Below are positions 10,039 to 29,614 of a DNA stretch of 39,361 nucleotides, one piece after another (the stretch's first letter is position 1; each line of letters begins with the position of its first letter). A program made the translations under genes and the position numbers. Source of the stretch: a virus (Duplodnaviria; Caudoviricetes); IMG/VR virus record IMGVR_UViG_3300037424_000235, positions 1 through 39,361 of that record; one strand, written 5' to 3'. The notes beneath the pieces are model-generated. The model saw only the letters and a program-made list of their open reading frames with translations, did no database searches and was not told where the DNA came from.

Positions 10039-10947
10039 ATGGCTTTCACCACAGTTCTCACAACCATCTCCGATGTGGATGATAGCATCATCACCCTTTT
10101 CGACCAGGGTGTGATCCTGTCTTACACGCCGGAACTCGTCGCTGACCAGCTGGCGAATGTCCGCCGGTCGATCAACGGCGCAGCGGAAAAATTCACGCTG
10201 TATTCCAATCTCGCAATTCCTTCGGCGCTGACAGAGGATACGGACCCCGCGTCGGTTGCGCTGGTTGACACGCCTGTGACCATCACCCCGGTAGAGGAGG
10301 GCAATGTCGTGACGCGGACGCGTCTGGCATACTTCCAGACCGGAGGGAAGGTTGATGTGGCGGCAGCACAGCTCGTTGGGAGGAACATGGGGGTCACGGT
10401 AGACTACAGGGCGGTCGCAATCCTGGAAGCCTTCTCGACGACCCGGATTTACCCCAACGCGGCTTCTTCGGCTGCGACGCTGACGACCGCAGATGTCTTG
10501 GACGCGAAGTTCGCGAGCAGGCTGTATAACAAGCTCTCGCGGCTCAACGTCCCCGGGCTCGGTGGCGGGAGCTACTTCGGCATCGCGCATGACGACTGTC
10601 TGCACGATCTGAGGGAGTCTTTGATCCCGATTAAACAGTACCAGGATCTTGCCTCGATCATGAATGGCGAGGTCGGTATGGCCTTCGGGATTCGCTGGCT
10701 CCGGTCTTCCAACGTCACGGTGACGGCTGATTCAAGCGGAACGATTGACTCTTACAAGGTCAACGTCCTTGGATTCAATGCGCTCGGGAAGGCCGTCTCT
10801 GACGAACCTCGTCCGGTTATCAGCGGTCCGTTTGACAAGTTGGGCCGGTTCGTGAACGTCGGATGGTATGGCCTGCTCAAATACGGGGTGGTTGACACCT
10901 CGGCCATGGTGCAGGGAATCTGCGCGTCGTCTGTTGGCGCGAACTAA
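10039..10947 (+). CDS. Major capsid protein (HK97 fold, N4 gp56-like)
   Basis: Strong RBS; LTEDTDP, EEGN, YFGIAH...HDLRE, NGEVGMAFGIRW, GPFDKLGRFVNVGWY. Confidence 0.9.
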   Translation: MAFTTVLTTISDVDDSIITLFDQGVILSYTPELVADQLANVRRSINGAAEKFTLYSNLAIPSALTEDTDPASVALVDTPVTITPVEEGNVVTRTRLAYFQTGGKVDVAAAQLVGRNMGVTVDYRAVAILEAFSTTRIYPNAASSAATLTTADVLDAKFASRLYNKLSRLNVPGLGGGSYFGIAHDDCLHDLRESLIPIKQYQDLASIMNGEVGMAFGIRWLRSSNVTVTADSSGTIDSYKVNVLGFNALGKAVSDEPRPVISGPFDKLGRFVNVGWYGLLKYGVVDTSAMVQGICASSVGAN

Positions 10948-10964: not shown

Positions 10965-11423
10965 ATGAAGAAGCTCCTTTTTGTGGTTCTCGCACTCCTG
11001 GTGGTCGCTGTCCTGTGTGACGCACAGACCATCAGCGTTCAGAGGGAAGTCAGCACGGGCGGCCTCCATGCTTACCGGACGGGCACAACGTTCGTTGCGA
11101 GGTCTTACGCTGACGACCAGATCGACACGACAACCGCATACGACATGGCGAGCTGGGAAAACGCCTATGTGGTCATAAGCTCTACTGACTCGATTGATGT
11201 CAGTCTGGGCTATATGCCCTCCTATGACGGGACCAGCTTCAAAGCGCCTGTGACCATTTCATCGTTCACAAGCGTTGTGGCTGCGGGGAACGTTCTTGCA
11301 ATCGCCCTTCCTGCTGGCGCTTTGGGATGTCCGAAGGTTCAGTTGACCTTTACATTCAACAGCTCTGGCAATGGGGTGGCGGGGACTACGACCTACAGCG
11401 CAAAACTCGTTCGGAAGCGGTAA
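10965..11423 (+). CDS. Signal-peptide-bearing beta protein in the capsid-decoration position
   Basis: MKKLLFVVLALLVVAVLCDA|Q; AAGGAG RBS; between MCP and a terminator; paralogue of next gene. Confidence 0.8.
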   Translation: MKKLLFVVLALLVVAVLCDAQTISVQREVSTGGLHAYRTGTTFVARSYADDQIDTTTAYDMASWENAYVVISSTDSIDVSLGYMPSYDGTSFKAPVTISSFTSVVAAGNVLAIALPAGALGCPKVQLTFTFNSSGNGVAGTTTYSAKLVRKR

Positions 11424-11429
11424 ACCAAC

Positions 11430-11459
11430 GGGGCGGGGGAGACCTCGCCCCTCTTTTTT
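11430..11459 (+). terminator. Intrinsic terminator after capsid operon
   Basis: GGGGCGGGG-GAGA-CCTCGCCCC then TCTTTTTT. Confidence 0.85.
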
Positions 11460-11468
11460 GGAGACACC

Positions 11469-11906
11469 ATGAAACGGCTACTCTCGATTGCGATACTCTC
11501 ACTCGTGGTTGCGGGAGCATCCGCACAGTACGTGAAGAACAACTACGAGTATCTGAAAACAGACCGGCTCGGCACACAGATTCTGGACATGGCCTATGTC
11601 TCTGAGCAGATCGACACAACTCAGGCTTTTGGCCCGGTAGACTTTGCTGCCGTGTTCGTGAATGTTCAGTCAAAGGATTCGGCCTCGATCCTGATAAAAT
11701 ACCAGCTTTCCTCTGATGGGGTGACCTGGGGGGCTTTGACTACCCTCGATTCGCTTTCGACTGCCGCTGGAGACTTCAAGAGCGTCAATCTGACTGCAAG
11801 CCTTTTGGGGGCCTACAGGGCAAGGTTGATTTTCACGATTCAGGATTACCGGCTCGGAACTTCAACGGCGACCTATACGGCAGGCTTAACCTCGAAGAAG
11901 TACTGA
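11469..11906 (+). CDS. Second signal-peptide-bearing beta protein, paralogue of 10965..11423
   Basis: MKRLLSIAILSLVVAGASA|Q; shared Y...QIDTT.A, S.DS, Y..S.DG, TY.A.L..K. Confidence 0.8.
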   Translation: MKRLLSIAILSLVVAGASAQYVKNNYEYLKTDRLGTQILDMAYVSEQIDTTQAFGPVDFAAVFVNVQSKDSASILIKYQLSSDGVTWGALTTLDSLSTAAGDFKSVNLTASLLGAYRARLIFTIQDYRLGTSTATYTAGLTSKKY

Positions 11907-11907
11907 C

Positions 11908-12564
11908 ATGGCCCTTTCCGCGAGGTCTATCATCACCGTTGCTCAGGCCAAGCTATATCTCAAAGTCGGGGCCTCGGAAACCTCTCTTGATTCGCTCCTT
12001 GAATCGTGGATTGACATTGTCTCAGGTCAGGTTGAAGATCTGATCGAGCAGAACTACGCCATCACAAGAGACGTGACCTCTTACCTTTCCGGTGATGGTG
12101 GATGCGAGTTGTTCTTGCAGTATTACCCATTCCAGGGACTTTCGGAAGCGACGGAAGCCCTGAAGCTTGCCAACCTTCAGTACCGGGGATCTGTGCTTGA
12201 TACCTGGCATGATCTCTTAACCGAAGTCGATTACGTCTTTACAGATCCGGTAGAGTACGACAGGATCAAACTCTTAGGGTACACGGTCTTCCCTTGTGGG
12301 GAGAAGAATATCAAGGTCACTTATTCAGCCGGCTGGGGAACGACTGCGACAGTCCCTTCGACATTCACAAAGGTTGCACTTGAAATGCTGAAGGTTATGG
12401 ATCTGGAGTCTGCCGAAGGGAAAAACTCTCTCGGGTATCAGTCCAAGAGCACCGCTGCTGCCGGGGTTAGTGGGTCAGACAGCTTTCTTGACATGATGCC
12501 GCGCTGGAACGGTATGCTCCAAAGCTATAAGAGGCTTCGCCGGCCTTTGAGGATGGTCCGGTAA
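11908..12564 (+). CDS. Head-tail adaptor (gp6/gp15-like)
   Basis: ITVAQAKLYLK...DSLLESWI, NIKVTYSAGW, VP motifs and position. Confidence 0.8.
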   Translation: MALSARSIITVAQAKLYLKVGASETSLDSLLESWIDIVSGQVEDLIEQNYAITRDVTSYLSGDGGCELFLQYYPFQGLSEATEALKLANLQYRGSVLDTWHDLLTEVDYVFTDPVEYDRIKLLGYTVFPCGEKNIKVTYSAGWGTTATVPSTFTKVALEMLKVMDLESAEGKNSLGYQSKSTAAAGVSGSDSFLDMMPRWNGMLQSYKRLRRPLRMVR

Positions 12565-13034
12565 TGGCAATCTCCCGCTTTGAAGATGTCATGTCTGACC
12601 TGAAGGCTGAGTTCGAGTCTATCCAATCAGGGACTACTTACAGAAGCTCCGTGGTCCTCCCGGTAGAGCTCGAACTGGTAGACCCCGATTCGGTTAAAGT
12701 CGGCCCAAAGGTTTTCATCGTCACTCTGGGAGAAAGACTGGTTTTCATCAACACAACGAAGACGATAGCCCACTCGGAGTTTGAAGTGGTTGTCGGTGGG
12801 ATAGTGAAGTCTGATCTTGGGAATCTTTACGATGACGTCAATGCCCTGGCCCATGACTTCAAGCAGTGCCTTTCGGGGTTTGCAATGAAGAACGTGAATA
12901 TCTCGGCTAACCGTTGGGTGGTCAAGAAAGACTCACCGCCCACGATGCAAAGAGGCATACCGCCCAAATCCAATTACGGGTGGGTGATGATGCAGTTCAC
13001 GGTTCAAATCTTCGCACAGGCGAGCACGTTTTGA
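12564..13034 (+). CDS. Probable tail terminator/completion protein
   Basis: Size, position and alpha/beta pattern; no strong motif. Confidence 0.55.
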   Translation: MAISRFEDVMSDLKAEFESIQSGTTYRSSVVLPVELELVDPDSVKVGPKVFIVTLGERLVFINTTKTIAHSEFEVVVGGIVKSDLGNLYDDVNALAHDFKQCLSGFAMKNVNISANRWVVKKDSPPTMQRGIPPKSNYGWVMMQFTVQIFAQASTF

Positions 13035-13528
13035 TAACGACAACGGTTGAAGCGAGTTTACCGAGAGTCGGGGAAGACCTTAGCCCTCTTATGAAGACGG
13101 TGGGTCTTTTGATGTTAGACTCCGTGAGGAAAACTTTCGGAGTCGGGGGAAGGCCCCTAACCTGGAAGGCACTCATTGGCGGAGAGGTTTCAAATCTCTT
13201 TGGCTCTGGAGGACTCTTACAGTCCCTTGAGATGACTTCAGGAATAGACTTCGCCGAAGTCTCCACAGATTTGCCTCATGCGAAGTGGATGCAGTGGGGG
13301 AGCCATCCTTTGGTGACCGAGAGATCGAAGAAGTTCTTTTGGATGAAATACATCCAGACTGGGCAGGATTTCTGGAAAGGGATGGCGCTGAAACACGTCG
13401 GGACGAGGTTGAACATCCCTCCCAGGCCGTTCATGTTGTTTCAAGAGGAAGATATCGAAACAATAAAATCCTTCTTCGGTGAAGGGTTGGTCAAATTCAT
13501 CACAGCAGACCAGGAGATAATCGGGTGA
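13031..13528 (+). CDS. Virion morphogenesis protein (Mu gpG-like)
   Basis: DLSPLM, GGRPLTWKAL, SGGLLQSL, HAKWMQWG, NIPPRPFM; TTG start overlapping previous stop. Confidence 0.8.
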   Translation: MITTTVEASLPRVGEDLSPLMKTVGLLMLDSVRKTFGVGGRPLTWKALIGGEVSNLFGSGGLLQSLEMTSGIDFAEVSTDLPHAKWMQWGSHPLVTERSKKFFWMKYIQTGQDFWKGMALKHVGTRLNIPPRPFMLFQEEDIETIKSFFGEGLVKFITADQEIIG

Positions 13529-13896
13529 TCGAAATAGGAGGCAATAAGTATCATTCAAGGAAAGTGTCTCAGAGAGATCCCTACCTGTCGGCAATCGCTG
13601 TTGAGGATTTGTTTCTGATCTCTGAGCAATTGGACGAGCTTTTGCCGAAGCGTGACAAGGAATCGCGCGAGAAATACCGGGCTCTCTGGCTGGAACTCTG
13701 CGGGATCTGTTTGGAGGAAGACGTTTCTCCCCTTGCCCTGGAGAAAATCACCCCGAAAGATAAGAGGGTACTCGTGGATTTTTTCGGGCTTCTTGCGGCT
13801 TCGGCGACCGGGAAGCTGCAAGATGGGAAAGAGAACTCAGCCGGTTCGGAGAGAAAAGAAGGCCAAGAAACAAACTCCCCGGTCGTTACGAGCTGA
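13525..13896 (+). CDS. Tail assembly chaperone (gpG-like)
   Basis: Precedes tape measure; VDFF at slippery site. Confidence 0.7.
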   Translation: MIEIGGNKYHSRKVSQRDPYLSAIAVEDLFLISEQLDELLPKRDKESREKYRALWLELCGICLEEDVSPLALEKITPKDKRVLVDFFGLLAASATGKLQDGKENSAGSERKEGQETNSPVVTS

Positions 13897-14030
13897 GTTA
13901 TACCCTCTACCTCTTGTGCGACGGGGATATTTCCAAGAGAAGGACAATCGGTCAAGAGTATAGCTACCCCGCCCTCCAGAGGTGGATGCTCTTAGGAGGG
14001 TATCACTACACGGAGACGAAACCGAAATAA
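13776..14030 (+). other. Predicted -1 frameshift site (G GAT TTT TTC) and gpGT-like extension
   Basis: The -1 frame is open from 13785 to TAA at 14028-14030: RASCGFGDREAARW...YTLYLLCDGDISKRRTIGQEYSYPALQRWMLL... Confidence 0.7.
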
Positions 14031-14035
14031 GAGTG

Positions 14036-14206
14036 TCAGGGCTTCTTGGATTTGGTTTGTGCGATATAGAGGTAGGTCAGCGGGGCGAATAGAACACAGG
14101 CGACACTCAGAGGGAACGATGCAATCCCTTTTTGTTCGGCGATTGAAACGTTGATGATGGCGATGACCCCCCAAGCGACGATAACAGCAAGCATCCATGC
14201 TTCCAT
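14036..14206 (-). CDS. 56-aa two-TM protein, moron/superinfection-immunity-like
   Basis: GGAG RBS; MEAWMLAVIVAWGVIAIINVSIAEQKGIASFPLSVACVLFAPLTYLYIAQTKSKKP; fills the chaperone-TMP gap; not in ORF track. Confidence 0.7.
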   Translation of the reverse strand: MEAWMLAVIVAWGVIAIINVSIAEQKGIASFPLSVACVLFAPLTYLYIAQTKSKKP

Positions 14207-14229
14207 GTGGGTCTCCGATTGGGCCTCAG

Positions 14230-14258
14230 AATGTGGAAAAAGGGACTGAGAAAGTCAA
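14230..14258 (-). promoter_or_regulatory. Putative promoter of the antisense membrane gene
   Basis: Minus strand TTGACT, 17 nt, CACATT. Confidence 0.4.
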
Positions 14259-15971
14259 ATGGCTGAGAATACCGTAACAATAAAAACGGTTTTTGAGGGC
14301 AAGGAACAACTCCGACAGTATAAGGCGGACATGGATCTTGCCTCAAAATCATTACAGCGGATTGACCTTGAACAACGGAATGGCATTCTCACCCAAAAAC
14401 AGGCGCTTACTGCTGTCGATGGGGTGATGAAAGGCGTCAAGGCGTATGGTTATGGTCTTCTTGACACGGTTAAGATTGAAACCCAGGCCTATCATGTCCA
14501 GCGCAGGATTGAGACGAATTGGAGAAGCATGGGGGATGCTCTTGGTGGCATCAGCGATAAGATGTCCCCAGCAACCCAAGCCCTTAAAAACTTTTACCGC
14601 GAACAAAGAGTACAAGACCGGACATTAAGAGAATCGTCGGCTGCCCTCGCGGGCTTTGCGAGTATGTTCGGGGGTGGCGGGGCGTTTACCAATGCCATTC
14701 AGGGTGCAGTTGGTGGGATTCAACAGACAGAATTTGCCCTTACTGGGATGGGGATAGCCGCGTCTTCGGCGGGTGGGGCAATGGCGAAGATGGCGCCAAT
14801 TCTTTTAGCCGCGGCCGGTCCTCTATCGGCGTTGGTGGGTGGTGCGGCGCTCCTCGTTGCTTGGTTCTCGGCGGCAAAAACTGAGACGAAGGATTTAACT
14901 AACAACATTGACGATTTGCGGTATGCTCTGGGGATTTACAATGACGAACAAATGCGTAGCATTCTTCTCGTTCGTATCAAGCTTGCCCAGGATGAACTCG
15001 AAAAGGCGAAGAAAGAAGCTGCTGGAGCAATACCGTGGGGAACGTTCTTTGATTTCTCGATGGGTGCACAGGGTGTTGCCAGCATTCTTGACCCAATCGT
15101 TCTGGCAGAGGGTCAGTTTGCAAATCTCTCGAAGGGCATGAAGGCGATTGAACCCCAACTGGAGGGGCTGTTGGGTGCTCAGAAGGCATTGAAGGATTTT
15201 GATGATAAGGCCGCGAAGGAGAGAGAAAAGAACAAAGATAAGGAGAGAGAAAAGAACAAAGATATTGTTGAAGCTCTTAGTGCGGAAGAAACTGGCCTTG
15301 CGTTGGTCAATGATAAATGGGCGAAGCAGTTCGAAATCATGTCAAAGGTTTCTGACCACATGAAGCTCCGTCCCTCGGAAAGACTTGACTACATCAAGCG
15401 CCAAGCCCCCGGTGCTCCGACACTCGCAAAGGAAGTCAAACCCGTCACCCTTGCCGACACGCTGAAGGAAATGGACAAAGCCGGCAAGGAATTAAACGGC
15501 TTTGAGTCATCCTTCAACTCTGCCTTCGGTCGGATGAACAACACGATAGGAGACTCAATCGGAGGGGGATTGGTTGAAGCCTTCGGAATTGGCCATACTC
15601 TTTTGGGACAATTTATCGCAGATTTCTCGGCTCAGATAATGAGCCTTACGACTATGGGTATCATCAAGGGGCTTTTCTCTCTGGGGAGTGGAGGCTTCGG
15701 GGCGGGGTTCCTCTCGGTCTTCAAATTCGCGAGCGGTGGCTGGATCAACGAACCTGTCTATGGAGTAGGTAAGAGCGGTAAACGCTACATGATCGGTGAG
15801 GAAGGCCCGGAATACGTTTCTCCCCGCAGAATGAATCAGATAGGGATGGCTTCAAGGGGCGGGGAACAGAGGATCATCGTTGAACTCGCCGGCGGCGTGA
15901 CCCTTTCGGGGGATCAGTTAAATATCGCCCTTGAAAAAGCCATGCCAAAGATTAGAGCCAGGAGAGCTTAG
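14259..15971 (+). CDS. Tail tape measure protein
   Basis: Ala/Gly-rich helical protein with TM-like segment; C-terminal FASGGWI...MIGEEGPEYV motif. Confidence 0.88.
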   Translation: MAENTVTIKTVFEGKEQLRQYKADMDLASKSLQRIDLEQRNGILTQKQALTAVDGVMKGVKAYGYGLLDTVKIETQAYHVQRRIETNWRSMGDALGGISDKMSPATQALKNFYREQRVQDRTLRESSAALAGFASMFGGGGAFTNAIQGAVGGIQQTEFALTGMGIAASSAGGAMAKMAPILLAAAGPLSALVGGAALLVAWFSAAKTETKDLTNNIDDLRYALGIYNDEQMRSILLVRIKLAQDELEKAKKEAAGAIPWGTFFDFSMGAQGVASILDPIVLAEGQFANLSKGMKAIEPQLEGLLGAQKALKDFDDKAAKEREKNKDKEREKNKDIVEALSAEETGLALVNDKWAKQFEIMSKVSDHMKLRPSERLDYIKRQAPGAPTLAKEVKPVTLADTLKEMDKAGKELNGFESSFNSAFGRMNNTIGDSIGGGLVEAFGIGHTLLGQFIADFSAQIMSLTTMGIIKGLFSLGSGGFGAGFLSVFKFASGGWINEPVYGVGKSGKRYMIGEEGPEYVSPRRMNQIGMASRGGEQRIIVELAGGVTLSGDQLNIALEKAMPKIRARRA

Positions 15972-17371
15972 TGGCTACCCATGCAATTGAGACCGTAGAG
16001 CTTCCAACGGGGACACTGGAGGTGACGGCCTATTCTCCGGTAGCGGGTCTCACGGTGCCGAGCTTTGCGAGTCTCAAATTTGGTTCGGGACTTGCGGAGA
16101 AGGTCGATCCGGTAGCGGGGGTGATTGAAGTGGAACACTGGGACTTCCAGTACACGGAAGACTATTCAGTCCACGCTAATGGATTCTGGTACACATTGCT
16201 TAACGGCGCGACCCTGGATATTCAAGTGACGCTCGCTTATCCAACTGGTGGGGATTTACATTTCTTCTACGGCAGGGCTGAAAAGTCTGCGATAGTTCTT
16301 GAAGAAAAGTCTTTGATCTCGGGGTCCGTTATCAGAACCGGGGTCATCGGCTGCAACTCGTTCTTAACGGCCCTGAAAGCTGTGACCCTACAGCAAGTTT
16401 ATGATGACATCGAAACTAACGTGAGATATAGAGTCCCCAACACGATCAATGGTTCGGCCCCAGGTGGGACAGGCGCAGGGTATGAGTTCGTGACCATCCC
16501 GACGATCATCAACTCAGCTCTTGCTCTTGCTACAGGCCAGGGATTTTCTGGGGACACCAACGTCTTGGGGAGCGATGACATTGAGTTTTCGGTCGATGAC
16601 GCCACCTACTATGGGATCTTCGACGATTTGTACGTTGTAAGAGAAAATCTTGGGTCTGCGGTTTGGCAGACTCAATATGGGCTTGCGTGGGATCTGGTCA
16701 ATGCTTTATGCAGAAACGTCGGGTTCATTCCAAGGCTTGTCTACGATGTTTCCGCCGGGAGGTTTTTTGTTAGACTCCTGACGCGGGGAAGGTCTTACGC
16801 CGCGAACATCACCCTTGGGGTCCCGGAAACTTCAATCTATTACGCCGATACCCCGGCTTTGGTGAGCTTCATCGAAGCGGACAATGACCTGACGGGGAAG
16901 TACTACTACGTTGTCGATTCTGATTCTGGCGGAGTTAATGAACCCCCGGCGTGGGACCCCGATATGATCCTGAAGATAAACGTGGGAAGTTATCAGGTCG
17001 CCCTTCCAAATAACAATGGGAGATCAATCTATCATTCAACCGGCTCCGAAGCTGGGGCAGATTTAGACATGAGCTACACGCTTTACACTCGATGGTGGAA
17101 CTACGAGGCGGCAGAGTGGGGAACCTCGGGGAGAACGGACATTGCTCTCTCGAAATACTATGGACATCGTTTGGGTGGCGGGAAAAGAGTTTACGAGAGG
17201 ACTTACAGGTCGATCAAGGGGAACGATGGATCGACGGAGTCTTTTGAACACGTGACTCTTTGTAGGCAGACGGCGATTGATGACGGAGTTTCTTCGAGAA
17301 ACTTCTACGCAACCGAAGTTGAAAAGAACCCAAGAGACAACACGCTAAAGGTTCGCTGGCAGGAAGTCTAA
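15971..17371 (+). CDS. Probable tail tip hub/baseplate protein
   Basis: Follows TMP; 466 aa beta-rich; WDLVNALCRNVG hub-like segment. Confidence 0.55.
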   Translation: MATHAIETVELPTGTLEVTAYSPVAGLTVPSFASLKFGSGLAEKVDPVAGVIEVEHWDFQYTEDYSVHANGFWYTLLNGATLDIQVTLAYPTGGDLHFFYGRAEKSAIVLEEKSLISGSVIRTGVIGCNSFLTALKAVTLQQVYDDIETNVRYRVPNTINGSAPGGTGAGYEFVTIPTIINSALALATGQGFSGDTNVLGSDDIEFSVDDATYYGIFDDLYVVRENLGSAVWQTQYGLAWDLVNALCRNVGFIPRLVYDVSAGRFFVRLLTRGRSYAANITLGVPETSIYYADTPALVSFIEADNDLTGKYYYVVDSDSGGVNEPPAWDPDMILKINVGSYQVALPNNNGRSIYHSTGSEAGADLDMSYTLYTRWWNYEAAEWGTSGRTDIALSKYYGHRLGGGKRVYERTYRSIKGNDGSTESFEHVTLCRQTAIDDGVSSRNFYATEVEKNPRDNTLKVRWQEV

Positions 17372-17423
17372 ACTCTCTCACACACAAGAAGACCCGCTCT
17401 CGGGCGGCAAGAAGGAGAAACAA

Positions 17424-18311
17424 ATGGCAGCCTTTGGATTTACTGAAACACTCGCAAACGTCCTCAACTCGGGGATAGCGTCCTGGAAGGTTAAGAGATC
17501 CGATGATGACGCTTACTATTCACTCGGACCTCTGAAGGACGGGAAGATCAATCTTCAGACGGTCGATGAAACGGACACCTACCAGCGCGCAAGGGTGTAC
17601 GGTTACACACTGGAAGCGGAGGCGAAAATGCTCGGGACAGACAACGCAGCCTGTCTTGCCCTGCTTGACCACTTGATTGATCTTCAGCTCACCCACAAAA
17701 TCACGCTGATAAACGGCGTGACTCTCAAAGGTGACTTTGGGTTTGATTGGGATTTTGATACCACGAAAGACTTCGATGGCGTCAGATTCATTCAGGTAAA
17801 ATCTTCGCTCGGAGAGGCCATCCCAACCAATCTGACGGCCCTTTTGGCTGCACCTCCAGCCGATGGGACCCCGAATGTCGCGGACGTTCTGTACACCTTC
17901 GCTCCTGCGACCCTTGTCTCTGCGGGTGACACGACGATGGAGATCAGAAACCTCGCCGGGGATGCCTATGAGACAATAGGCAACCACCGGGGGCTCCAGC
18001 TCCACATTCGCTCAAAATCAAGCCCGAAGAAAGACCACAAGTGGAGAAACCTGAATCTGGGCGTTGAGTTTGATCTGAAGGTCGAAATGCTTCAGTCTTC
18101 CTCAACCGAACTTGCGCTCTTGGATAATATCATAGCCGCGACGGGAGTAAGGGCGACCCTCTCAGATGCGACGGTCTTTGATTTCGGCGGGAAGATCGGC
18201 GGCGTGCCGTGGAAATATATCCACGACAATGACTCTGAAGACTTCGCCATCATTGGCATTGAGGCGAAGGGCTTCATGATTCGCTCTGACTATGCCGGTA
18301 TCATCAGCTAA
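17424..18311 (+). CDS. Probable major tail tube protein with internal domain duplication
   Basis: Strong AAGGAG RBS; two halves share DAY..(L/I)G, ML.(T/S), LALLD and TL motifs. Confidence 0.55.
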   Translation: MAAFGFTETLANVLNSGIASWKVKRSDDDAYYSLGPLKDGKINLQTVDETDTYQRARVYGYTLEAEAKMLGTDNAACLALLDHLIDLQLTHKITLINGVTLKGDFGFDWDFDTTKDFDGVRFIQVKSSLGEAIPTNLTALLAAPPADGTPNVADVLYTFAPATLVSAGDTTMEIRNLAGDAYETIGNHRGLQLHIRSKSSPKKDHKWRNLNLGVEFDLKVEMLQSSSTELALLDNIIAATGVRATLSDATVFDFGGKIGGVPWKYIHDNDSEDFAIIGIEAKGFMIRSDYAGIIS

Positions 18312-19171
18312 TGGACTCCATCGTCCTGAAATACGGGGCGGAGACCGTTGTTCATGCTTGCGATGCGAACTGGGATGAATCCGGGACGGCAAATATCACG
18401 GCGAGCCTGGACACAGCGGACAAGAAGGTCGGGACGGGCTCTGTGAAGCTGACTGCGACGGCTGAAGTAGCGGCGGGGGAAATATTGAAGACAGACAATA
18501 TAGCCTCCGCCGATCTTTCAACGTATTTGGGGATTCGGTTTTGGATCAAGCCCGTAAGAGGGACGGGATCAACCAACTATGCTGCGGGGGCGTTTCAATT
18601 GCTCTTGGATGATACGGCCTCCTGTGCGAGTCCACTTGAAACGATAGACCTTCCAGCTCTGACTAATGGGGTGTGGAGTTTGGTCTTTCTTCCCTTTTCC
18701 AATCCTTCGCTCTTGACGGCGGTTATTTCTGTCGGCTTAAAGGGTGTTTTGGCTGTCACGATAGATACAACGATCAATATTGACGCCCTAACGGCGGTGA
18801 CAGCCAAAGAGTATTCGACTCTCGGGGTGAGGGGGTTTGATGATGTTGACTCCTTGAGATTCTTTCCAAGGCTTCAGAGCGAACTCTTAGATGGGGCGAT
18901 GAGCGAAGAGGAGAATTTTTTCGGTAGGAACGTCACTGTAGACCTCGGGGTCATTTCTACGAAGGCAGACAGGGTGTGGCTCGTACTATACCTCATGTCG
19001 GCCACCAAGAAACTCCTTTGTCAGTATCCGGGTGAGGAGCTTTCGGTGGTCTTCGGAACTCCAGAGGGGATGGAGAATGAGTGGCTTGAAGGACTGGAGT
19101 TTGCACGAAGTTTCACTCTGGAATTCAAAGAGGTCGCTGTGAACTCAACTGCACCCGCGGCATGGGCTTAG
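18311..19171 (+). CDS. Distal-tail-like protein with inserted carbohydrate-binding-like domain
   Basis: Paralogue of next gene plus about 155-aa insert (DKKVGTGSVK, DLSTYLGIRFWIK, NGVWSLVFLPF). Confidence 0.6.
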   Translation: MDSIVLKYGAETVVHACDANWDESGTANITASLDTADKKVGTGSVKLTATAEVAAGEILKTDNIASADLSTYLGIRFWIKPVRGTGSTNYAAGAFQLLLDDTASCASPLETIDLPALTNGVWSLVFLPFSNPSLLTAVISVGLKGVLAVTIDTTINIDALTAVTAKEYSTLGVRGFDDVDSLRFFPRLQSELLDGAMSEEENFFGRNVTVDLGVISTKADRVWLVLYLMSATKKLLCQYPGEELSVVFGTPEGMENEWLEGLEFARSFTLEFKEVAVNSTAPAAWA

Positions 19172-19632
19172 TCACTCTCAAATATGGCGCGACGGAAAAG
19201 GAGTTTACCGCTCTTTCTGTAAGAGGCTTGGATGACGTTGACGAGGTGAGGTTTTTCGTCGCGGAGAATTGTGAGCTTCCTGACGGGTCTTTGTTCCAGA
19301 GAATCCCGGCCTTTCGGAGAGTCATCACGATAGACTTAGGCGTTTTGCTTGTTAAGTCTGACCGGGTTTGGCTTTCTGATTTCATGGATTCGAGCGACAA
19401 ACACATCATTTACGGTACTGAAGATGTACCCGTTGTCTTGGAAGATCCTGAAGGATATGAAAACGAATGGCCCGATGGACTGGAGGCGGCAAGGTACTAC
19501 GTCTTAAAACTCGAAGAAATGAACGCACGAGCGACTGTGCCTGATATGTGGTATACGTACACCTACAAGACCGATCCCGAGGGAAGAATCGTGACCGATC
19601 CCGAGGGCAGGCCACAACTCGTTCGGAATTGA
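19162..19632 (+). CDS. Distal-tail-like protein, short paralogue
   Basis: LKYGA, VRG.DDVD..RFF, DLGV...K.DRVWL, PEG.ENEW..GLE.AR shared; C-terminal TDPEGR twice. Confidence 0.6.
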   Translation: MGLVTLKYGATEKEFTALSVRGLDDVDEVRFFVAENCELPDGSLFQRIPAFRRVITIDLGVLLVKSDRVWLSDFMDSSDKHIIYGTEDVPVVLEDPEGYENEWPDGLEAARYYVLKLEEMNARATVPDMWYTYTYKTDPEGRIVTDPEGRPQLVRN

Positions 19633-19633
19633 C

Positions 19634-21439
19634 ATGAAACGAATTCTTGCGCTAATGTTGCTGGTTGTGTCGGTCGCCTCTGGCCAATACACGGGAGACC
19701 GCCGGACGCAGTCCATCTGGTATGTCGCACAGCAGGACACCACCATTTCAGCCGCGAGAGGGTTCTATCCACTACAGGTTGGGCGCTATGTGCCCTTTGA
19801 ATTCGGAAGGCCAACGGCTGGGAGGCCATATTGGAATTTCAACACACACAAGAACGCGACTCAGGCCAACGACATTGTACTTTCGATGTTCCACAACCTG
19901 ACCTATGATTCCACGGCGGGCAATTATTCAAACTCCAAGCCATTTCCGGGGATAGGGGCTTTTGCGATGCAGTGGGAATCTCATTACGATTCCGCAATGG
20001 AGTGGAACGCTAATCTTTGGGCGGCCTCAGAAAATCCTGCAGGTGGATTTTACAGACGCATCTTCCACATGAACGCCTACAACTCTGCCGTCCCCACTTC
20101 AGGCATTGTTCCTGGCATGGTGACATGGCGATGGTGGACTGGGAGGCATGGGCAATTTGCCGTGGGTTACGACCAAGGCGGGCCCCTGTACTCAAGTGGC
20201 GGCAACATTGATTCAACAAAATTTTCATTCTTTGGGCGCGGAGATGATGTCGGCCAGATGATGCGGAATTATAACGACTCCGGCTCAACCTCGGTTCTGT
20301 TGGCTGATTCGGGCTTTGGGTACTTGAAACTCCAGCAGTTCGGGACGCGCAGACAGGATAGTCTCTACGGGATTCCCCTTAACGGTCAATCGGCTTCTCG
20401 GATTATCAACTTCGGCTTTGGCGATCTATTCCTCGGCACTAATAGCGACAAGCACATCTATTTCCATAACGATGGTTCTTTGTCGGGGGAGCTCGGCACG
20501 GGGGGGCTCGGGCTTTACCGCCAGTCCTTTTATTGGTATGCGTACAATCCCCTTCTCCAGATGACAGATTCCTTCGACGCCAGTCGGACAATGCTCTTTG
20601 GGGTTTACGGGGATCAGGGTTTATTCACTACCCGCTATACCTACGACATTCATCTCTGGCCTCGGTACAATTCCAGTGGTGGGAAAGTCTTAATCGGGGA
20701 CAGCACGGGATCGGGGTTCTTGACGGCGACCACGAATGTCAATGGTTCTTTGAAGGCACTCACCACAATTGCTGCCGGAAATCTTACGGCAGACTCATCC
20801 GTCACAGGAGTTGGAGCGCACTTTACCGGCGGAGGGAGATTTGATGGGCCGGTTACGGCCTCAAACACAATAGGTTCAAGTTCCACGGATAACCATCTGG
20901 TCAGAGCGGTTACGCCAGATTCGCTCGCAGATGGACCGATATATGTTGATGCGAATACTGATACGGCAGCAACAAGGGCTTATGCGCGGGCGCAAGCCGC
21001 CCCCAAGATGGACTCTACCCGGGTCAATACCCTTCTTGACTTAAAAGCCCCACTTGCCTCACCGACTTTTAGCGGGCAGGTGCAAGCCAGAAACAACATA
21101 TCAGATTACGCCAGCGAAAGTCAGTATCCGCTTTCGGCGGGGATGAGCACGGCGACAAGGCGGGTGATCATCGGATTCCATGACGGAACGAGCCGTGGAG
21201 TCATTGCTGCGATCGATGATGGTGTTGCATGGCGGGGTCTCTGGTTCAATCCGAATGGCGGCCAAGCAGATTTTGGCGGACCAATTGCTTCCACACAGTT
21301 TAAGCTCTCGGCTTTGAACGCCGCCCCGGTCAATGCAAGTGACACCGGGACTCTGGGTGAAATCAGGATAGATGCGTCTTTTATTTATGTCTGCACTGCA
21401 ACTAATACGTGGGTTCGTGCAGCTATTTCAACTTGGTAG
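19634..21439 (+). CDS. Fibre-like protein with N-terminal signal peptide
   Basis: MKRILALMLLVVSVASG|Q; phage fibre motif KAPLASPTFSG; C-terminal ASDTGTLGEIRIDASFIYVCTATNTWVR motif typical of phage fibres. Confidence 0.75.
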   Translation: MKRILALMLLVVSVASGQYTGDRRTQSIWYVAQQDTTISAARGFYPLQVGRYVPFEFGRPTAGRPYWNFNTHKNATQANDIVLSMFHNLTYDSTAGNYSNSKPFPGIGAFAMQWESHYDSAMEWNANLWAASENPAGGFYRRIFHMNAYNSAVPTSGIVPGMVTWRWWTGRHGQFAVGYDQGGPLYSSGGNIDSTKFSFFGRGDDVGQMMRNYNDSGSTSVLLADSGFGYLKLQQFGTRRQDSLYGIPLNGQSASRIINFGFGDLFLGTNSDKHIYFHNDGSLSGELGTGGLGLYRQSFYWYAYNPLLQMTDSFDASRTMLFGVYGDQGLFTTRYTYDIHLWPRYNSSGGKVLIGDSTGSGFLTATTNVNGSLKALTTIAAGNLTADSSVTGVGAHFTGGGRFDGPVTASNTIGSSSTDNHLVRAVTPDSLADGPIYVDANTDTAATRAYARAQAAPKMDSTRVNTLLDLKAPLASPTFSGQVQARNNISDYASESQYPLSAGMSTATRRVIIGFHDGTSRGVIAAIDDGVAWRGLWFNPNGGQADFGGPIASTQFKLSALNAAPVNASDTGTLGEIRIDASFIYVCTATNTWVRAAISTW

Positions 21440-21447
21440 GAGGAAAC

Positions 21448-22119
21448 GTGAAACGACTCGCAAGTCTCGCAGTATTCTGTGTGATTGGAACACTTTCAGC
21501 AAGTGCTCAGTTTGCCGTAGGGGACAACGTAACGGTCAATCATCCTTCTGGCTGCGCGACTGTCAGATCAGCCCTCACTACAACTATTCCCGCCCTGAAG
21601 TGCGAACCCACGGGAACGGCTGGAATCGTTGGGAGCGGCCCGAGTCAGTGGGGGGACTTCCCTTACTACACAGTCTCTTTCTCTGACGGGGTTTCAGGTT
21701 GGATCGCGGGGGTCTGGCTTCAGAAATCTTCTGGACCTGTGAATCCCCCGCCCTCGGGGAGTCTTGCGGTGACACCTCTTACCAATGGATTTGCCACCGT
21801 CTCTTTCTCGGCCAAAGACGATACGATGGGGATTCTTTCTCCGTTCGCGGGGGAGTATTCTGGAGCCTTAACAGTCAAACTTGACGTCCCGACGATCTTC
21901 TCCCTGACTTTAAGAGGAAGGGGAGGGGAAAGAGTTTACGCTGCTTCGACCTTGGACGGGACTCCGCTTCCTCCGCCCGGGCCTCAGTTGGATTCAACCG
22001 CGATTGCTAATGCTGCCTATGACGCGGGAGTATTGAGGGGGATCGTGCTTGGGAAAGCAACCGTGGCCGTGGATTCTGTGATCGTTAAGCTATCTACCGG
22101 CGTGGAGGTCAGACGATGA
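21448..22119 (+). CDS. Signal-peptide protein with SH3b-like domain
   Basis: AGGAGG then GTG; MKRLASLAVFCVIGTLSASA|QFAVGDNV...VRS...YYTVSFSDGVSGWIAGVWL; Pro-rich linkers. Confidence 0.75.
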   Translation: MKRLASLAVFCVIGTLSASAQFAVGDNVTVNHPSGCATVRSALTTTIPALKCEPTGTAGIVGSGPSQWGDFPYYTVSFSDGVSGWIAGVWLQKSSGPVNPPPSGSLAVTPLTNGFATVSFSAKDDTMGILSPFAGEYSGALTVKLDVPTIFSLTLRGRGGERVYAASTLDGTPLPPPGPQLDSTAIANAAYDAGVLRGIVLGKATVAVDSVIVKLSTGVEVRR

Positions 22120-24167
22120 AAAGACTCATTCCTTTTCTGATTCTCGCGCTGACCGTCACTTTCGCGGACGCGGGAGTCCGTAGGTATGTGAGAGTGGGGG
22201 GGACTTCTTCTGGGACCGCTGCGACTCGCGCCACGGGCTGGAGTCACCAATGGGCGTGGTCTTCAAGCAACAACACCATCCAGCCTGGAGACACCTGTCT
22301 TTACATAGACGACTACGGAGCGTTTTTCGTCTCCGATAAAGACCACGGGGACATTCAAAGGAAGTCTGGAAGCTCCGGCCAGCCGATTATTTATAGAGCG
22401 GAGCCCGGAAAACATATCAGACTCTACCACGACTACACTCCTGGTTGGGCCCCAGCTCAGATCGAAGGTCAATATGTTTGGCTCTGGGGGTTTGATATAT
22501 ACGTCACTGACGTAGTGACCCCGAATGAGTGGCCCACGGTCATCATCAATAATCACAACATTAAGATCATCAACTGCACGATCCACGATGCGAAGTCAAT
22601 AGGCATAACAGACTACGCCTATAACTATACCGAGGTCTGTGGAAACATCATTTACTATTGTGGTAGGCAAACAAACATAGACCAGTTCGGTTACGCGGGG
22701 TATATCCAAAACAAGACTCCGAGCCCCGAAAAGATTTACCGGCACAACACAATCTTCTCCGAGTGGGACTTGGGGTGGCAGTTCTATGGCTCAGATGCCA
22801 CTGAAATGGACAACATCACGATTGACTACAATCGGTTGTTCAACACCGGAAATCTTCAGCCCAAACCCTCGGAACAGTTCCAGCCGAATATAGTTATTGG
22901 TGCGGGGGAGGTAACCGCGAAGGTCGTTGAAGACATCCGGTTCCGCCATAACTACGGTTTCTATTCTGCTTCTCCGGGGAACGGTCACTACTTTTCGTTG
23001 GGTTATCAGGGCTCTGGAATTGCTGATTGGATTGTCTCTGATAACGTCATTGTCTCTCAGGCCAACAGTGGACTTCATTTTTCGGAAGGCTATGGATCGA
23101 ACCTGACTTTTTCCAACAACATGATCATTGGGCCGACTCAATCCACCGTTACAGACCATCCGGGGCAAGGGAATGTGGGGTACTCTAATTTTGCCGCCGC
23201 TGCCGCCGCAAGGTCTGTGGATGTGTACATAGACCAGAACCCTTACGAGCCCAAAAGGGCCAACGTAACGATCTTCAACTGGGATGGGAGCGCCACGGTT
23301 TCTTTTGATCCATCGACTATCCTTGACGCTGGAGATGAGTACGAGGTAAGAAGTGCTACCAACTTTTGGGGATCTGCTCTTGCTTCAGGTGCCTGGACTT
23401 CCGGGAATATCACGATCACCTGTTCAGATATTACAATGGCGACCCCTTATGGGAGTCCGGCTTTCCCTCCGAGGAACCCGCAACCGTACTTTCTGCCCCT
23501 TGTTCTTGTGGGGCCGTATGACGAAACCGCGCCCAATCCTCAACCGCCCCCGGCCCCAGTTCAGACAGCCGCAACGTCGGTTGGAAGTTCGGGCGCTACG
23601 CTTCACTGGGGGGCTTCAACGGGTGCAACAAGCTACAGAGTGGACGTTGCTACTGATGCTTCGTTTACAACCCTTGTCATTGCAGATACGAACGTCGGGA
23701 ACGTCACAAGCTCTGCCATCACCGGCCTTGCCTCCGGGACTCAGCATTGGACAAGGGTAAGAGCTGTCAACGCAGACGGAACAAGCTCAAACTCCAACAC
23801 AATCACGTTCACAACGACCTCTGGGGCCCCCAATCCCCCGGATGACCCAATAGCCACATCTGCCACAAACATCTACTGGAACGCATTTACGGCGAATTGG
23901 GGGGCATCCTCCGGGGCTACCGGGCACAGACTGGACATTTCGGTGGACAACTTCTCAACCTTCGTCGAAGGATTCAACGATCTGGACGTGGGGAACGTGA
24001 CAAGCTACGCAGTCTCTGGCCTTCAGGGGTCAATAACCTACTATTACAGAGTCAGAGCTTACAACGGGGATGGATTCTCCGCAGAGTCCAACACGATTTC
24101 ACTCACAACGCTCATAGCCCCTCCTGTTCCGGATCTTCCGAGGGGGCGTCTACTCATTCACTACTGA
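22116..24167 (+). CDS. Signal-peptide protein: right-handed beta-helix (pectate-lyase-like) plus two FN3 domains
   Basis: MKRLIPFLILALTVTFADA|G; YV...G, QPGDT, GSSGQPIIYRAEPG, IINCTIHD; two W...GA..(Y/H)R.D...GL.....RVRA.N..G FN3 units. Confidence 0.85.
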   Translation: MKRLIPFLILALTVTFADAGVRRYVRVGGTSSGTAATRATGWSHQWAWSSSNNTIQPGDTCLYIDDYGAFFVSDKDHGDIQRKSGSSGQPIIYRAEPGKHIRLYHDYTPGWAPAQIEGQYVWLWGFDIYVTDVVTPNEWPTVIINNHNIKIINCTIHDAKSIGITDYAYNYTEVCGNIIYYCGRQTNIDQFGYAGYIQNKTPSPEKIYRHNTIFSEWDLGWQFYGSDATEMDNITIDYNRLFNTGNLQPKPSEQFQPNIVIGAGEVTAKVVEDIRFRHNYGFYSASPGNGHYFSLGYQGSGIADWIVSDNVIVSQANSGLHFSEGYGSNLTFSNNMIIGPTQSTVTDHPGQGNVGYSNFAAAAAARSVDVYIDQNPYEPKRANVTIFNWDGSATVSFDPSTILDAGDEYEVRSATNFWGSALASGAWTSGNITITCSDITMATPYGSPAFPPRNPQPYFLPLVLVGPYDETAPNPQPPPAPVQTAATSVGSSGATLHWGASTGATSYRVDVATDASFTTLVIADTNVGNVTSSAITGLASGTQHWTRVRAVNADGTSSNSNTITFTTTSGAPNPPDDPIATSATNIYWNAFTANWGASSGATGHRLDISVDNFSTFVEGFNDLDVGNVTSYAVSGLQGSITYYYRVRAYNGDGFSAESNTISLTTLIAPPVPDLPRGRLLIHY

Positions 24168-25086: not shown

Positions 25087-25095
25087 GGGGGGATT

Positions 25096-25965: not shown

Positions 25966-25968
25966 CAG

Positions 25969-26313
25969 ATGGCACTCTCGGAAGCCTTTGCGGGTTCACA
26001 GGCGGTTGACACGACAGAGTGGTCGATGGTCACTGACTCGGCCGGCCCGGACGCCGAGACTTCTGACGGGGTGTTCCAGCTCTTTCTCGATCTGTCAGAC
26101 ATGGTGACTGGTGACGAGCTGCAAATCAGGATCTACGAAAAGGTTCAGTCCACCGGCACGCAGCGCGTCATCTACCAATCAAACCTCATCGGTCCACAGT
26201 CTCCTCCTTCGTGGGTGAGTCCGTCACTCTTGCTCATGCACGGGTGGGACATGACGCTTGACGCGATAGCTGGTACTATCACCGTAGAGTGGTCGATAAG
26301 GAAGGCTGCCTGA
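25969..26313 (+). CDS. Small virion structural protein
   Basis: AGGAGG RBS; beta-rich; DGVFQLFLDLSDM..GD...IRIYEKV. Confidence 0.65.
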   Translation: MALSEAFAGSQAVDTTEWSMVTDSAGPDAETSDGVFQLFLDLSDMVTGDELQIRIYEKVQSTGTQRVIYQSNLIGPQSPPSWVSPSLLLMHGWDMTLDAIAGTITVEWSIRKAA

Positions 26314-28472: not shown

Positions 28473-28670
28473 ATGCAAGCAGTTCTCGATTGGCTCAACG
28501 GGAAAAAGACGTACATCGTCGCCATTCTCTTGGCTGTCTTTGACATCGGCGTTGCAGTCGGATGGTGGCCAGTTGACTCTGCCGTGTGGCAGTCGGTTAA
28601 CGCGATCCTCGCGGCCTTTGGCCTTGCTTTCCTTCGGGCAGGAGTGGCGAAGTCGGGCCCGGCTCAGTGA
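28473..28670 (+). CDS. Holin-like two-TM protein
   Basis: AAGGAGG RBS; WLNGKKTYIVA...GLAFLRAGV. Confidence 0.7.
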   Translation: MQAVLDWLNGKKTYIVAILLAVFDIGVAVGWWPVDSAVWQSVNAILAAFGLAFLRAGVAKSGPAQ

Positions 28671-29152
28671 GCGACTTAAAGAAATGGGCGGCCTATATCG
28701 GGGCCGCCCTTGTCTTCCTCGGGGCTTTCGGATTCTTCGTTTGGAAGATGAGCGAGAGGTCTACTCTGGCCAGAGTCGCCGCCGCGCCCGCTGATACAGT
28801 GATGATCGAGAAGGAAAAGAGGGTGGAGGTTCCAGTCGTGAGGGTTAAAAAGATCGAAACCCACAAGACGGACACTCTTTTCGTCTTCCAGCCCGCCGAT
28901 ACGGTCTATGTTGCAAGGGCTGACACGGTCATTAGAGGGACAGAACTTCGGATGGCCTACTTCTCTCCCGTCCCTCTTTCGCCACAGGGCTTCTTCGGGG
29001 ACATACAAATCAAACTTCCCGCTCAACTCGTGAAGGTGGAGGAAAGGACGATCACCAAGACGGTGATCGAGGAGAGAATAGACTTCCCGTGGATCATCGG
29101 GGTTGCAAGCGCGGGCATTGTCGCTGGCATTTTGATCGGTCGAAGACAGTAG
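28667..29152 (+). CDS. Spanin-like membrane protein
   Basis: N- and C-terminal hydrophobic segments; repeated DTV/DTL; located in lysis cluster. Confidence 0.55.
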   Translation: MSDLKKWAAYIGAALVFLGAFGFFVWKMSERSTLARVAAAPADTVMIEKEKRVEVPVVRVKKIETHKTDTLFVFQPADTVYVARADTVIRGTELRMAYFSPVPLSPQGFFGDIQIKLPAQLVKVEERTITKTVIEERIDFPWIIGVASAGIVAGILIGRRQ

Positions 29153-29236
29153 GGTGGGTTGTGCCTCCTTCGGGGGGTTGGCGACTCCTGCGCCGCCCCC
29201 CGCCACCCTTACACATCAATTCTGGAGTATACCAAA

Positions 29237-29611
29237 ACGGCCGATTTCGTTACACATGGTTTGATCGGGGCGGGGGTGATGGCCGCCCCCGCAAGGTTCT
29301 TCTGGGCTCCGAAGTGGCTGAAGAATACGTTAGCCATTTACGGGTTCATCGTGGGCTCTGCACCGGACACCTTTGATTGGATTGCTGCTCAGTTGGGACT
29401 CGCCCCGAGATGGGAGTGGTACACGATCTTTCACCACAACGCCCCGTGGTACTGGCTCATCCAACCACCTATCTTCATGCATGTCGCAGTAACGGACCCG
29501 CCGTTTCACATCATCTCTGGTTGGTCGTGGTGGCCGGTCATGTGGAGTGTGGAAGTCTTGTGGGTGCTCTTCGCCACGGCACTTCTCTATTATGCTTACC
29601 GAAAGGAATAA
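29237..29611 (+). CDS. Membrane metal-dependent hydrolase-like protein (YdjM-like)
   Basis: DFVTHGLIG, GSAPDTFD, FHH, MHVAVTD motifs; start uncertain (ACG at 29237 or TTG at 29159). Confidence 0.6.
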   Translation, partial: TADFVTHGLIGAGVMAAPARFFWAPKWLKNTLAIYGFIVGSAPDTFDWIAAQLGLAPRWEWYTIFHHNAPWYWLIQPPIFMHVAVTDPPFHIISGWSWWPVMWSVEVLWVLFATALLYYAYRKE

Positions 29612-29614
29612 TGG

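What the first reader, a model, noticed from the sequence alone, without database searches (positions are those of the whole stretch)
10965..24167. Five Sec-signal-peptide proteins inside the virion module: possible periplasm-matured virion parts
Seen: the ORFs at 10965, 11469, 19634, 21448 and 22116 all start MK(K/R), then a hydrophobic core, then an SPase I-like site (CDA|Q, ASA|Q, ASG|Q, ASA|Q, ADA|G). They are co-oriented and closely packed with head and tail genes. Two sit in the capsid-decoration slot, and one carries phage fibre motifs (KAPLASPTFSG and the C-terminal ...YVCTATNTW.R motif). Established: tailed-phage virions assemble in the cytoplasm and their structural proteins normally lack signal peptides. 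Inference: this phage exports decoration, fibre and depolymerase proteins to the periplasm, where they are processed and then dock on virions once the holin opens the inner membrane. The alternative is that they are late-expressed envelope effectors derived from virion proteins.
Basis: partly seen in the sequence, partly recalled or inferred. Interest (0 to 1): 0.9.

Follow-up and report, generated by a model that had tools for sequence, protein, structure and literature searches.

The report
Phage coat parts exported through periplasm
A tailed phage puts bacterial export signals on five proteins encoded among its head and tail genes, and one conserved family also keeps three host sugar-attachment motifs, so its outer coat and fibre parts are likely finished outside the cytoplasm and would join the particle only at lysis, unlike textbook phage assembly.

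Summary
Observation confirmed. The window is a whole circular 39-kb tailed phage. All five ORFs have Sec/SPI-type N-termini (21448 starts at GTG), four with Gln at +1; no core head or tail gene has one. 10965 and 11469 are paralogues in a new jelly-roll family (189 clusters; 135 of the top 150 pass my signal rule). In 119 aligned members the near-invariant residues are the +1 Gln and three D-S/T sites that fit the Bacteroidota O-glycosylation motif (347 seen, 89 expected). The gene directly follows the major capsid gene in 7 of 8 close relatives and precedes a conserved terminator-like hairpin; it has weak similarity to BPP-1 cement. 19634 has a fibre C-terminus shared with a signal-bearing Cellulophaga phage protein annotated from virion MS/MS. 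22116 resembles bacterial T9SS cargo but lacks the C-terminal signal. Export is very likely, host glycosylation likely, and virion docking inferred (about 0.55). The host is probably an Ignavibacteria-like Bacteroidota lineage. This scan noted the same pattern before on other Bacteroidota phage DNA; my ten literature searches found no paper on it.

The parts
10039..10947 (+). Major capsid protein, no signal peptide
   Evidence: phrog_1357 major head protein E 4e-27
10965..11423 (+). Exported jelly-roll protein 1, cement-like; signal aa 1-20, Gln21; sequons DTT54 and DSI75 (the third family site is lost here)
11430..11460 (+). GC hairpin plus T run, terminator-like, after the first signal gene; a hairpin at this place in 6 of 6 MCP-clade loci folded
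11469..11906 (+). Exported jelly-roll paralogue 2; signal aa 1-19, Gln20; sequons DTT49, DSA70, DSL94
   Evidence: 33% identical to 10965, E 2e-16
19634..21439 (+). Exported fibre-like protein; signal aa 1-17, Gln18; 9 strict sequons against 2.3 expected
21044..21076 (+). KAPLASPTFSG motif (aa 471-481 of 19634); its fibre association is recalled, not from a call
   Evidence: sequence
21308..21439 (+). C-terminal fibre motif of 19634, shared with Cellulophaga phi18:3 gp086 and phi46:3 gp080 (both signal-bearing) and many cytoplasmic fibre or structural proteins
21448..22119 (+). Exported protein, GTG start; signal aa 1-20, Gln21; N-terminal part SH3b-like by eye, with a weak hit to an amidase (E 0.23) and Cys36/Cys52; 3 sequons against 0.8
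22116..24167 (+). Exported beta-helix plus two FN3 domains; signal aa 1-19, Gly20; related to bacterial T9SS cargo but without the C-terminal signal; 0 strict sequons
28473..30079 (+). Lysis block: holin-like 28473 (inferred from hydrophobic segments, no family hit), signal-anchored spanin-like 28667 (inferred; 4 sequons against 0.35), 29159, and M15 endolysin 29615

Best explanation
Five late genes of this tailed phage begin with Sec-type signal peptides, so their products are predicted to be exported to the host periplasm, likely cleaved and (for the jelly-roll pair and the fibre) likely O-glycosylated by the host, and they would then dock on finished capsids and tails when the inner membrane opens at lysis. 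Shown: the signal-like N-termini, their absence from the core head and tail genes, family-wide conservation of the signal, of Gln+1 and of three D-S/T sites, the slot after the major capsid gene, the hairpin behind it, and a jelly-roll model at pLDDT 92. Inferred: SPase I cleavage with pyroglutamate formation; glycosylation at D-S/T; 10965 made at capsid-protein level as the main surface cement and 11469 at a lower level; 19634 as a fibre; docking in the interval between holin opening and outer-membrane rupture, or just after release. 21448 and 22116 are exported too, but their place on the particle is less certain.
For: (1) Family: 189 clusters at E<=1e-3; 135 of the 150 listed pass the signal rule, and none of the 15 others looks like a full-length signal-less member. 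(2) In 119 aligned members (mean column identity 22%) the columns at 90% or more are M1, Q21, D54, T55, D75, D99, S100. D[ST] stands at the three sites in 114, 114 and 109 of 119; the strict motif occurs 347 times against 89 expected, while E[ST]x (17 vs 21) and D[ST]-other (90 vs 111) are not raised. The motif and its dependence on export are in PMC8550257, the Gln rule in PMC5837995. (3) Synteny: a family gene directly follows the capsid gene in the window, L001, L002, L017, L022, L023 and L024, which is 7 of the 8 MCPs in one 100/100 clade. A family gene also lies one short ORF after the protease-capsid gene of a lambda-type head in G040:C35. (4) A GC hairpin follows the gene in 6 of 6 clade loci folded. 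(5) BPP-1 cement Bbp16 occupies the same slot, is the only full-domain PDB sequence match of the profile (E 0.75) and gives hhalign probability 42%, E 2.6e-4, against 0.8% for a reversed control. (6) Cellulophaga phi10:1 gp091-094 and phi18:3 gp085-087 are annotated as structural from MS/MS and all 7 carry signal plus Gln+1; gp086 shares the C-terminal motif of 19634. (7) The phage's own signal-anchored lysis-block protein 28667 is also sequon-rich (4 vs 0.35).
Against: No virion, proteome or RNA data exist for this phage. The fold does not single out cements: with the good model the top match is PBSX XepA (Z 10.8), Eph, BcsB and CBM domains tie just below, KHP40 cement is rank 33 (Z 8.4) and BPP-1 cement is not in the top 50 (it was Z 7.8 with the poor model). 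The similarity to Bbp16 is weak. No member hits the Bbp16 or any cement Pfam (0 of 119). L015, in the same MCP clade, has no such gene. The 28 signal-less Bbp16 relatives also show some excess of the motif (42 vs 24, redundant set), and non-exported 18311 has 5 vs 1.4, so D-S/T can be structural. 10965 itself has lost the third site, and its 2 sequons are not above chance (0.8 expected). 22116 has none, and the 12 signal-bearing Cellulophaga proteins are depleted (11 vs 35), so glycosylation is not general. The MS/MS label could reflect co-purified membrane material; I could not read that paper. Alignment A3 was chosen from full-length, mostly signal-bearing hits.
Confidence: 0.55

Rival explanations
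1. The proteins are exported and probably glycosylated but never join the particle. They are late envelope effectors descended from virion and host secreted proteins: receptor blockers, decoys, or helpers that loosen the envelope and capsule at release.
For: 22116 is closest to bacterial secreted beta-helix/FN3 proteins with T9SS signals (37% over 82%), and G040 has chromosomal copies. The best fold match of 10965 is the 'PBSX exported protein XepA' (its link to lysis is recalled). Lipoprotein cargo genes occur in 6 of the TerL control loci.
Against: The jelly-roll gene keeps the slot after the capsid gene across unrelated capsid lineages and lies before the terminator-like hairpin, which fits capsid-level amounts. 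The analogous Cellulophaga proteins are annotated from virion MS/MS.
Confidence: 0.25
2. A mixed case: the cement-like pair and the fibre are virion parts added at lysis, while 21448 and 22116 are free periplasmic helpers.
For: 22116 has Gly at +1, no sequons and bacterial secreted relatives; 21448 has no relative among phage records. A run X3 contig leaves the window at 19617, which suggests this distal block is swapped between strains.
Against: A 22116 relative with a signal sits in the same distal block of another phage (G040:C35), and its FN3 part hits PHROG tail families. This rival overlaps with the best explanation in its core claim.
Confidence: 0.12
3. The hydrophobic N-terminus is not a signal but an uncleaved helix used in cytoplasmic assembly or as a membrane anchor, and the D-S/T sites are structural caps or metal ligands.
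For: No SignalP run and no processed N-terminus seen; two of the three sites lie in predicted strands; D54 has a counterpart in Bbp16.
Against: The N-terminal letters vary freely while A/S/G-Gln is kept (Gln 115 of 119), as for real signal peptides of hosts with the Gln rule; the hydrophobic runs are short; S and T interchange at site 75 (90 and 26) and Bbp16 has Gly-Ala at sites 75 and 99.
Confidence: 0.08

Closest known systems
Cellulophaga phage phi10:1 gp091-gp094 (KC821618) and phi18:3 gp085-gp087 (KC821620)
   Same: Late proteins annotated as structural from MS/MS; all 7 have signal-like N-termini with Gln+1; gp086 shares the C-terminal motif of 19634.
   Different: No homology beyond that motif; fibre or accessory slot only, no signal gene after the capsid gene in phi10:1; depleted in sequons; the records do not mention the signals.
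Bordetella phage BPP-1 cement Bbp16 (PF21190, PDB 3j4u) and other jelly-roll cements (KHP40 7dou, GP4 8h89, 7-7-1 9hz8)
   Same: Gene directly after the capsid gene, similar size, jelly-roll fold, shared Q-x-S-x-D motif in the profile alignment.
   Different: 0 of 28 Bbp16 relatives have a signal; similarity is below significance; no Pfam hit.
Bacteroidota general O-glycosylation and the Gln+1 rule (PMC8550257, PMC5837995)
   Same: Motif D-[ST]-[AILVMT], extended to S, C, G, F, on exported proteins; Gln after the SPI site; Ignavibacterium album has 77% Gln+1.
   Different: Described for host proteins; 'phage' occurs 0 times in the Q-rule paper. Glycosylation in Ignavibacteria-like hosts is not shown in what I read.
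T9SS cargo with beta-helix and FN3 domains (P0158, P0159)
   Same: Signal, beta-helix and FN3 of 22116 align with them.
   Different: 22116 lacks the TIGR04183 C-terminal domain, so it would stay in the periplasm until lysis.
Filamentous phage procoat and pIII; signal-bearing endolysins; moron lipoproteins (recalled, no call)
   Same: Phage proteins that use the host export machinery.
   Different: Filamentous coats stay membrane-anchored and assemble during extrusion; endolysins and morons are not parts of tailed particles.

Membership tests
Sec/SPI substrates | Basic n-region, hydrophobic h-region, small residues at -3 and -1, no lipobox Cys | tested here: met
   5 of 5 by my own rule and hydropathy
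Sec/SPI substrates | SignalP call or observed cleavage | not testable with these tools
   No SignalP and no proteome
Bacteroidota Q-rule substrates | Gln at +1 | tested here: met
   4 of 5 window proteins; 115 of 119 family members; 22116 has Gly
Bacteroidota O-glycoproteins | D-[ST]-[AILVMT(SCGF)] on an exported protein | tested here: met
   Family 347 vs 89; 19634 9 vs 2.3; 11469 3 vs 0.9; 21448 3 vs 0.8; not met for 22116 (0 vs 2.8)
Bacteroidota O-glycoproteins | Glycan actually attached | not testable with these tools
   Needs glycoproteomics
Bbp16-type capsid cement (PF21190) | Gene next to the major capsid gene | tested here: met
   7 of 8 clade loci; Bbp16 slot
Bbp16-type capsid cement (PF21190) | Single jelly-roll fold | tested here: met
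   Model pLDDT 92, eight or more strands, jelly-roll matches Z 8-11
Bbp16-type capsid cement (PF21190) | Significant profile match to the family | tested here: inconclusive
   0 of 119 hit PF21190 at E<=0.05; PDB profile E 0.75; hhalign 42%
Bbp16-type capsid cement (PF21190) | Bound to the capsid surface | not testable with these tools
   Needs virions or in vitro binding
Phage tail fibre or fibre connector (19634) | C-terminal fibre motif | tested here: met
   phrog_17312 E 8e-9; 169 phage records
Phage tail fibre or fibre connector (19634) | Full-length fibre homology or trimeric fold | tested here: inconclusive
   No full-length homologue; Atlas nearest clusters 'Tail fiber protein' at 0.89, a lead only
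T9SS cargo (22116) | C-terminal TIGR04183/PF18962 domain | tested here: not met
   Absent in 22116, present in P0158 and P0159

The most novel reading that the evidence does not exclude
Tailed phages of Bacteroidota-type hosts build their particle in two compartments: the core in the cytoplasm, and a full coat of capsid cement plus fibres in the periplasm, where the host's own O-glycosylation system sugars them at three conserved sites per subunit, so that lysis releases virions wrapped in hundreds of host glycans.
Probability: 0.4. Interest if true: 0.95.

Novelty: categorically new. Interest (0 to 1): 0.8.

Why it matters
Tailed-phage particles are held to be completed in the cytoplasm. An exported cement made at capsid level would mean a last assembly step that happens only when lysis mixes the two compartments, and a way for a phage to borrow the host's periplasmic folding, N-terminal cyclisation and glycosylation without encoding any glycosyltransferase. 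A host-glycan coat could alter adsorption, stability and recognition by host defences. The idea is testable now with cultured Cellulophaga phages, whose MS/MS-annotated structural proteins carry the same signals. It also warns annotators that signal-peptide genes in Bacteroidota phage late regions should not be dismissed as morons.

Tried and rejected
Complex prediction of two MCP copies with mature 10965 gave no answer (score 0.00); it is no evidence either way. Sequencing-run search: no RNA holder listed; small-share runs X3 and X4 were not used for habitat. No relatives were found for 19634 full length, for mature 11469 or 21448 in phage records, or for the beta-helix of 22116 in viral contigs. 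Foldseek against the PDB and the second VIA look were filled by Eph and CBM domains; BFVD gave unnamed small phage proteins; PHROG, Pfam and NCBIfam name no family for 10965, 11469 or 21448. The deep alignment A3 was too diverse for a pattern scan, so genomic context is known for only 11 of the family's members and for few of the 189 clusters. In 401 genomes of G002's phylum only 1 had a full-length member; the other 21 matches were short and weak, mostly to signal peptides. 26315 (MWSFTPLLL...) was considered as a sixth signal protein and rejected: no basic n-region, and its 57% relative in G040:C35 lacks that segment. A paired test of signal-bearing and signal-less homologues gave one pair only (L106 2 sequons, L015 0). 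The promoter scan was at chance (12 vs 10.3). The paper behind the Cellulophaga MS/MS annotation is not held.
Full report
What the window is. The window is the whole record and its two ends overlap within a 12-base repeat array, so it is a circular 39-kb phage genome. It has TerL, portal, major capsid protein (MCP), head-tail adaptor, neck protein and an M15 endolysin. The tail genes between 14259 and 19632 have no family hits and are assigned by position. It is held by two sediment metagenome runs, one of which may be its source.

Observation. All five ORFs are real and have signal-like N-termini. 21448 starts at GTG behind GGAGG. SignalP was not available, so I wrote a rule (basic n-region, uncharged 9-residue core, small residues at -3 and -1). 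It passes the five plus the signal-anchored 28667 among 47 called + strand ORFs of 100 aa or more; shuffles of the five pass it 0.25-3% of the time. As a control, 15 of 535 distinct ORFs downstream of TerL in 80 other loci pass: 6 lipoproteins, 3 poor calls, and 6 signal-plus-Gln proteins, all in L101-L104 and L106, which are among the best-ranked TerL relatives. So the signals are real and typical of this group of phages.

The jelly-roll pair. 10965 and 11469 are paralogues (33%, E 2e-16). A profile search found 189 clusters. Of the 150 listed, 135 pass the rule (two of them are query sequences). Of the 15 others, by eye 3 have a signal that the rule missed, 1 has an N-terminal extension, 6 look truncated and 5 are unrelated long or repeat proteins. 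I aligned the two window proteins with 117 of the 150, leaving out 33 (one duplicate, and long, extended, truncated or unrelated rows), so the signal frequency in that alignment is biased. The residue pattern in the mature part is not: at 22% mean column identity the near-invariant columns are M1, Q21, D54, T55, D75, D99 and S100. D-[ST] occurs at the three sites in 114, 114 and 109 of 119 rows, the strict motif D-[ST]-[AILVMT] in 84, 93 and 104, and nearly all others fit the extended motif. In total 347 were seen against 89 from shuffles; control patterns were not raised. This is the Bacteroidota O-glycosylation motif, which needs export (PMC8550257, abstract and passages). Gln+1 is the Bacteroidetes Q-rule, also high in Ignavibacterium album (PMC5837995, abstract and passages). 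I was led to test this by earlier finding e1-10057799.

Where the gene sits. In an MCP tree the window falls in a 100/100 clade of 8; a family gene directly follows the MCP gene in 7 of them, as two paralogues in the window, L023 and L024, and is missing in L015. L003 and L025 end too early to tell. None of the 11 more distant MCP loci L004-L014 has a signal gene there. A member also lies one short ORF after a lambda-type protease-capsid gene in G040:C35, and signal-bearing proteins with sequons lie in the head-neck interval of phages with other capsids (L101, L102, L103/104/108, L106), of which only L106 matches the family profile clearly. A GC hairpin follows the first gene in 6 of 6 clade loci folded, and none follows the second paralogue in 3 of 3. 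I infer that 10965 is made at MCP level, which suits a cement and is hard to explain for a moron.

Fold. With 119 rows the model reaches pLDDT 92 and is a single jelly-roll. The fold search does not name a function: XepA Z 10.8 (rmsd 2.9, 103 aligned), then BcsB, Eph and CBM domains; KHP40 cement Z 8.4; BPP-1 cement outside the top 50. By sequence, BPP-1 cement is the only match over the mature domain among 177,635 PDB sequences, at E 0.75; profile against profile gives 42%, E 2.6e-4. Bbp16 follows its MCP gene in the same way, and 0 of 28 relatives have a signal. I call the family cement-like and do not file it under PF21190.

The distal three. 19634 has 9 strict sequons against 2.3 and ends in a motif found in fibre and structural proteins of 169 phage records. 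No full-length relative was found. 21448 has no relatives; an SH3b-like N-terminal part is a by-eye reading with one weak hit. 22116 is a beta-helix plus two FN3 domains; its closest relatives are bacterial T9SS cargo, one from a 'Bacteroidota bacterium', whose C-terminal signal it lacks. It has no sequon, although two CTD-less relatives have 7 and 5 against 1.6.

Host. G040, a genome in the phylum of a Chitinophagaceae MAG, holds a 42-kb integrase-bearing phage contig that shares seven genes with the window, including 22116, 24177, 24661 and 26315, three chromosomal relatives of 22116 and 40 FlgD_ig-type matches. No host flank was seen, so the link rests on binning. In 380 kb of G040, 20 of 39 signal proteins have Gln near the site against 19 of 180 others, and sequons are 1.5 times expected against 1.2 times, a modest excess. 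That this type of C-terminal domain points to Ignavibacteria-like lineages is recalled.

Precedent. Following leads from earlier findings, I checked cultured phages myself. Cellulophaga phi10:1 gp091-094 and phi18:3 gp085-087 are annotated as structural from MS/MS, and 7 of 7 start with a signal and Gln; none of the other 27 proteins I translated from these two records passes the rule, though gp095 looks signal-like by eye. gp086 shares the C-terminal motif of 19634. These proteins are depleted in sequons (12 proteins including phi46:3, 11 vs 35), which argues against glycosylation as the general purpose of export. I could not read the source paper or its peptide tables; they bear directly on whether the N-termini are processed.

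Mechanism. The most likely reading is two-compartment assembly. Core parts assemble in the cytoplasm. The five proteins cross by Sec (inferred), lose the signal, cyclise Gln, fold, and in part receive host glycans (inferred). Lacking a T9SS signal they stay in the periplasm. When the holin opens the inner membrane, they meet finished particles and bind. That cements and tailspikes can bind finished particles without help (lambda gpD, T4 Soc, P22 tailspike) is recalled. I put export at about 0.95, glycosylation of the jelly-roll family at about 0.7 and virion docking at about 0.55-0.6.

Literature. Ten full-text searches listed no paper on exported parts of tailed virions; most hits I saw only as listings. 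Term look-ups in PMC5723332, PMC4615864, PMC12014285 and PMC10172136 (passages only) showed signal-peptide counts without comment, or no mention. The library lacks most subscription papers. This scan has noted the same pattern in at least 11 findings on other genomes; these are unchecked notes, not independent support. What this window adds is a new family with three near-invariant sequons, capsid-level gene context, and signals on both head and tail sides.

Verdict. Real and surprising; export well supported, docking not shown. Interest 0.8.

Noticed in passing
window 28667-29152: Signal-anchored protein beside the holin-like gene and endolysin, with 4 D-T-[VL] sequons against 0.35 expected; a similar sequon-rich protein sits in G040:C35 (L194, about 12186-12728). 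Possibly a glycosylated spanin-like protein.
   Followed up: partly
window 19617, run X3: A contig of a relative leaves the window just before 19634 and continues with another start whose first residues are basic then hydrophobic, suggesting a swapped distal gene that may also carry a signal.
   Followed up: no
window 1-480 and about 39100-39361: Array of 12-base repeats across the circular join, in a gene whose C-terminal part hits DUF6745; the repeat number may be misassembled.
   Followed up: partly
window 4362-5534: Full-length RtcB RNA ligase just upstream of the packaging genes.
   Followed up: no
window 31987-33108, 36490-37041, 38083-38805: Mgm101/Rad52-type recombinase, HNH-AP2 endonuclease and DUF5131 protein; no integrase was recognised among the 37 proteins scanned.
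   Followed up: no
L018, L020, L021 (Cellulophaga phages): Signal-bearing structural proteins are depleted in the glycosylation motif (11 vs 35), the opposite of this window's family; may be selection to avoid host glycosylation.
   Followed up: partly
L106:19479-19853 and L015:20346-20666: Similar small proteins (30% in a pairwise alignment), one with signal and sequons, one with neither.
   Followed up: partly
window 24661-28449: Signal-less distal block (phrog_644 gene, long Ala/Gly-rich repeat protein 26315) shared at 56-57% with the lambda-type phage contig G040:C35.
   Followed up: partly
window 18311-19171: Non-exported tail-region protein with 5 sequon matches against 1.4 expected; unexplained.
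   Followed up: no
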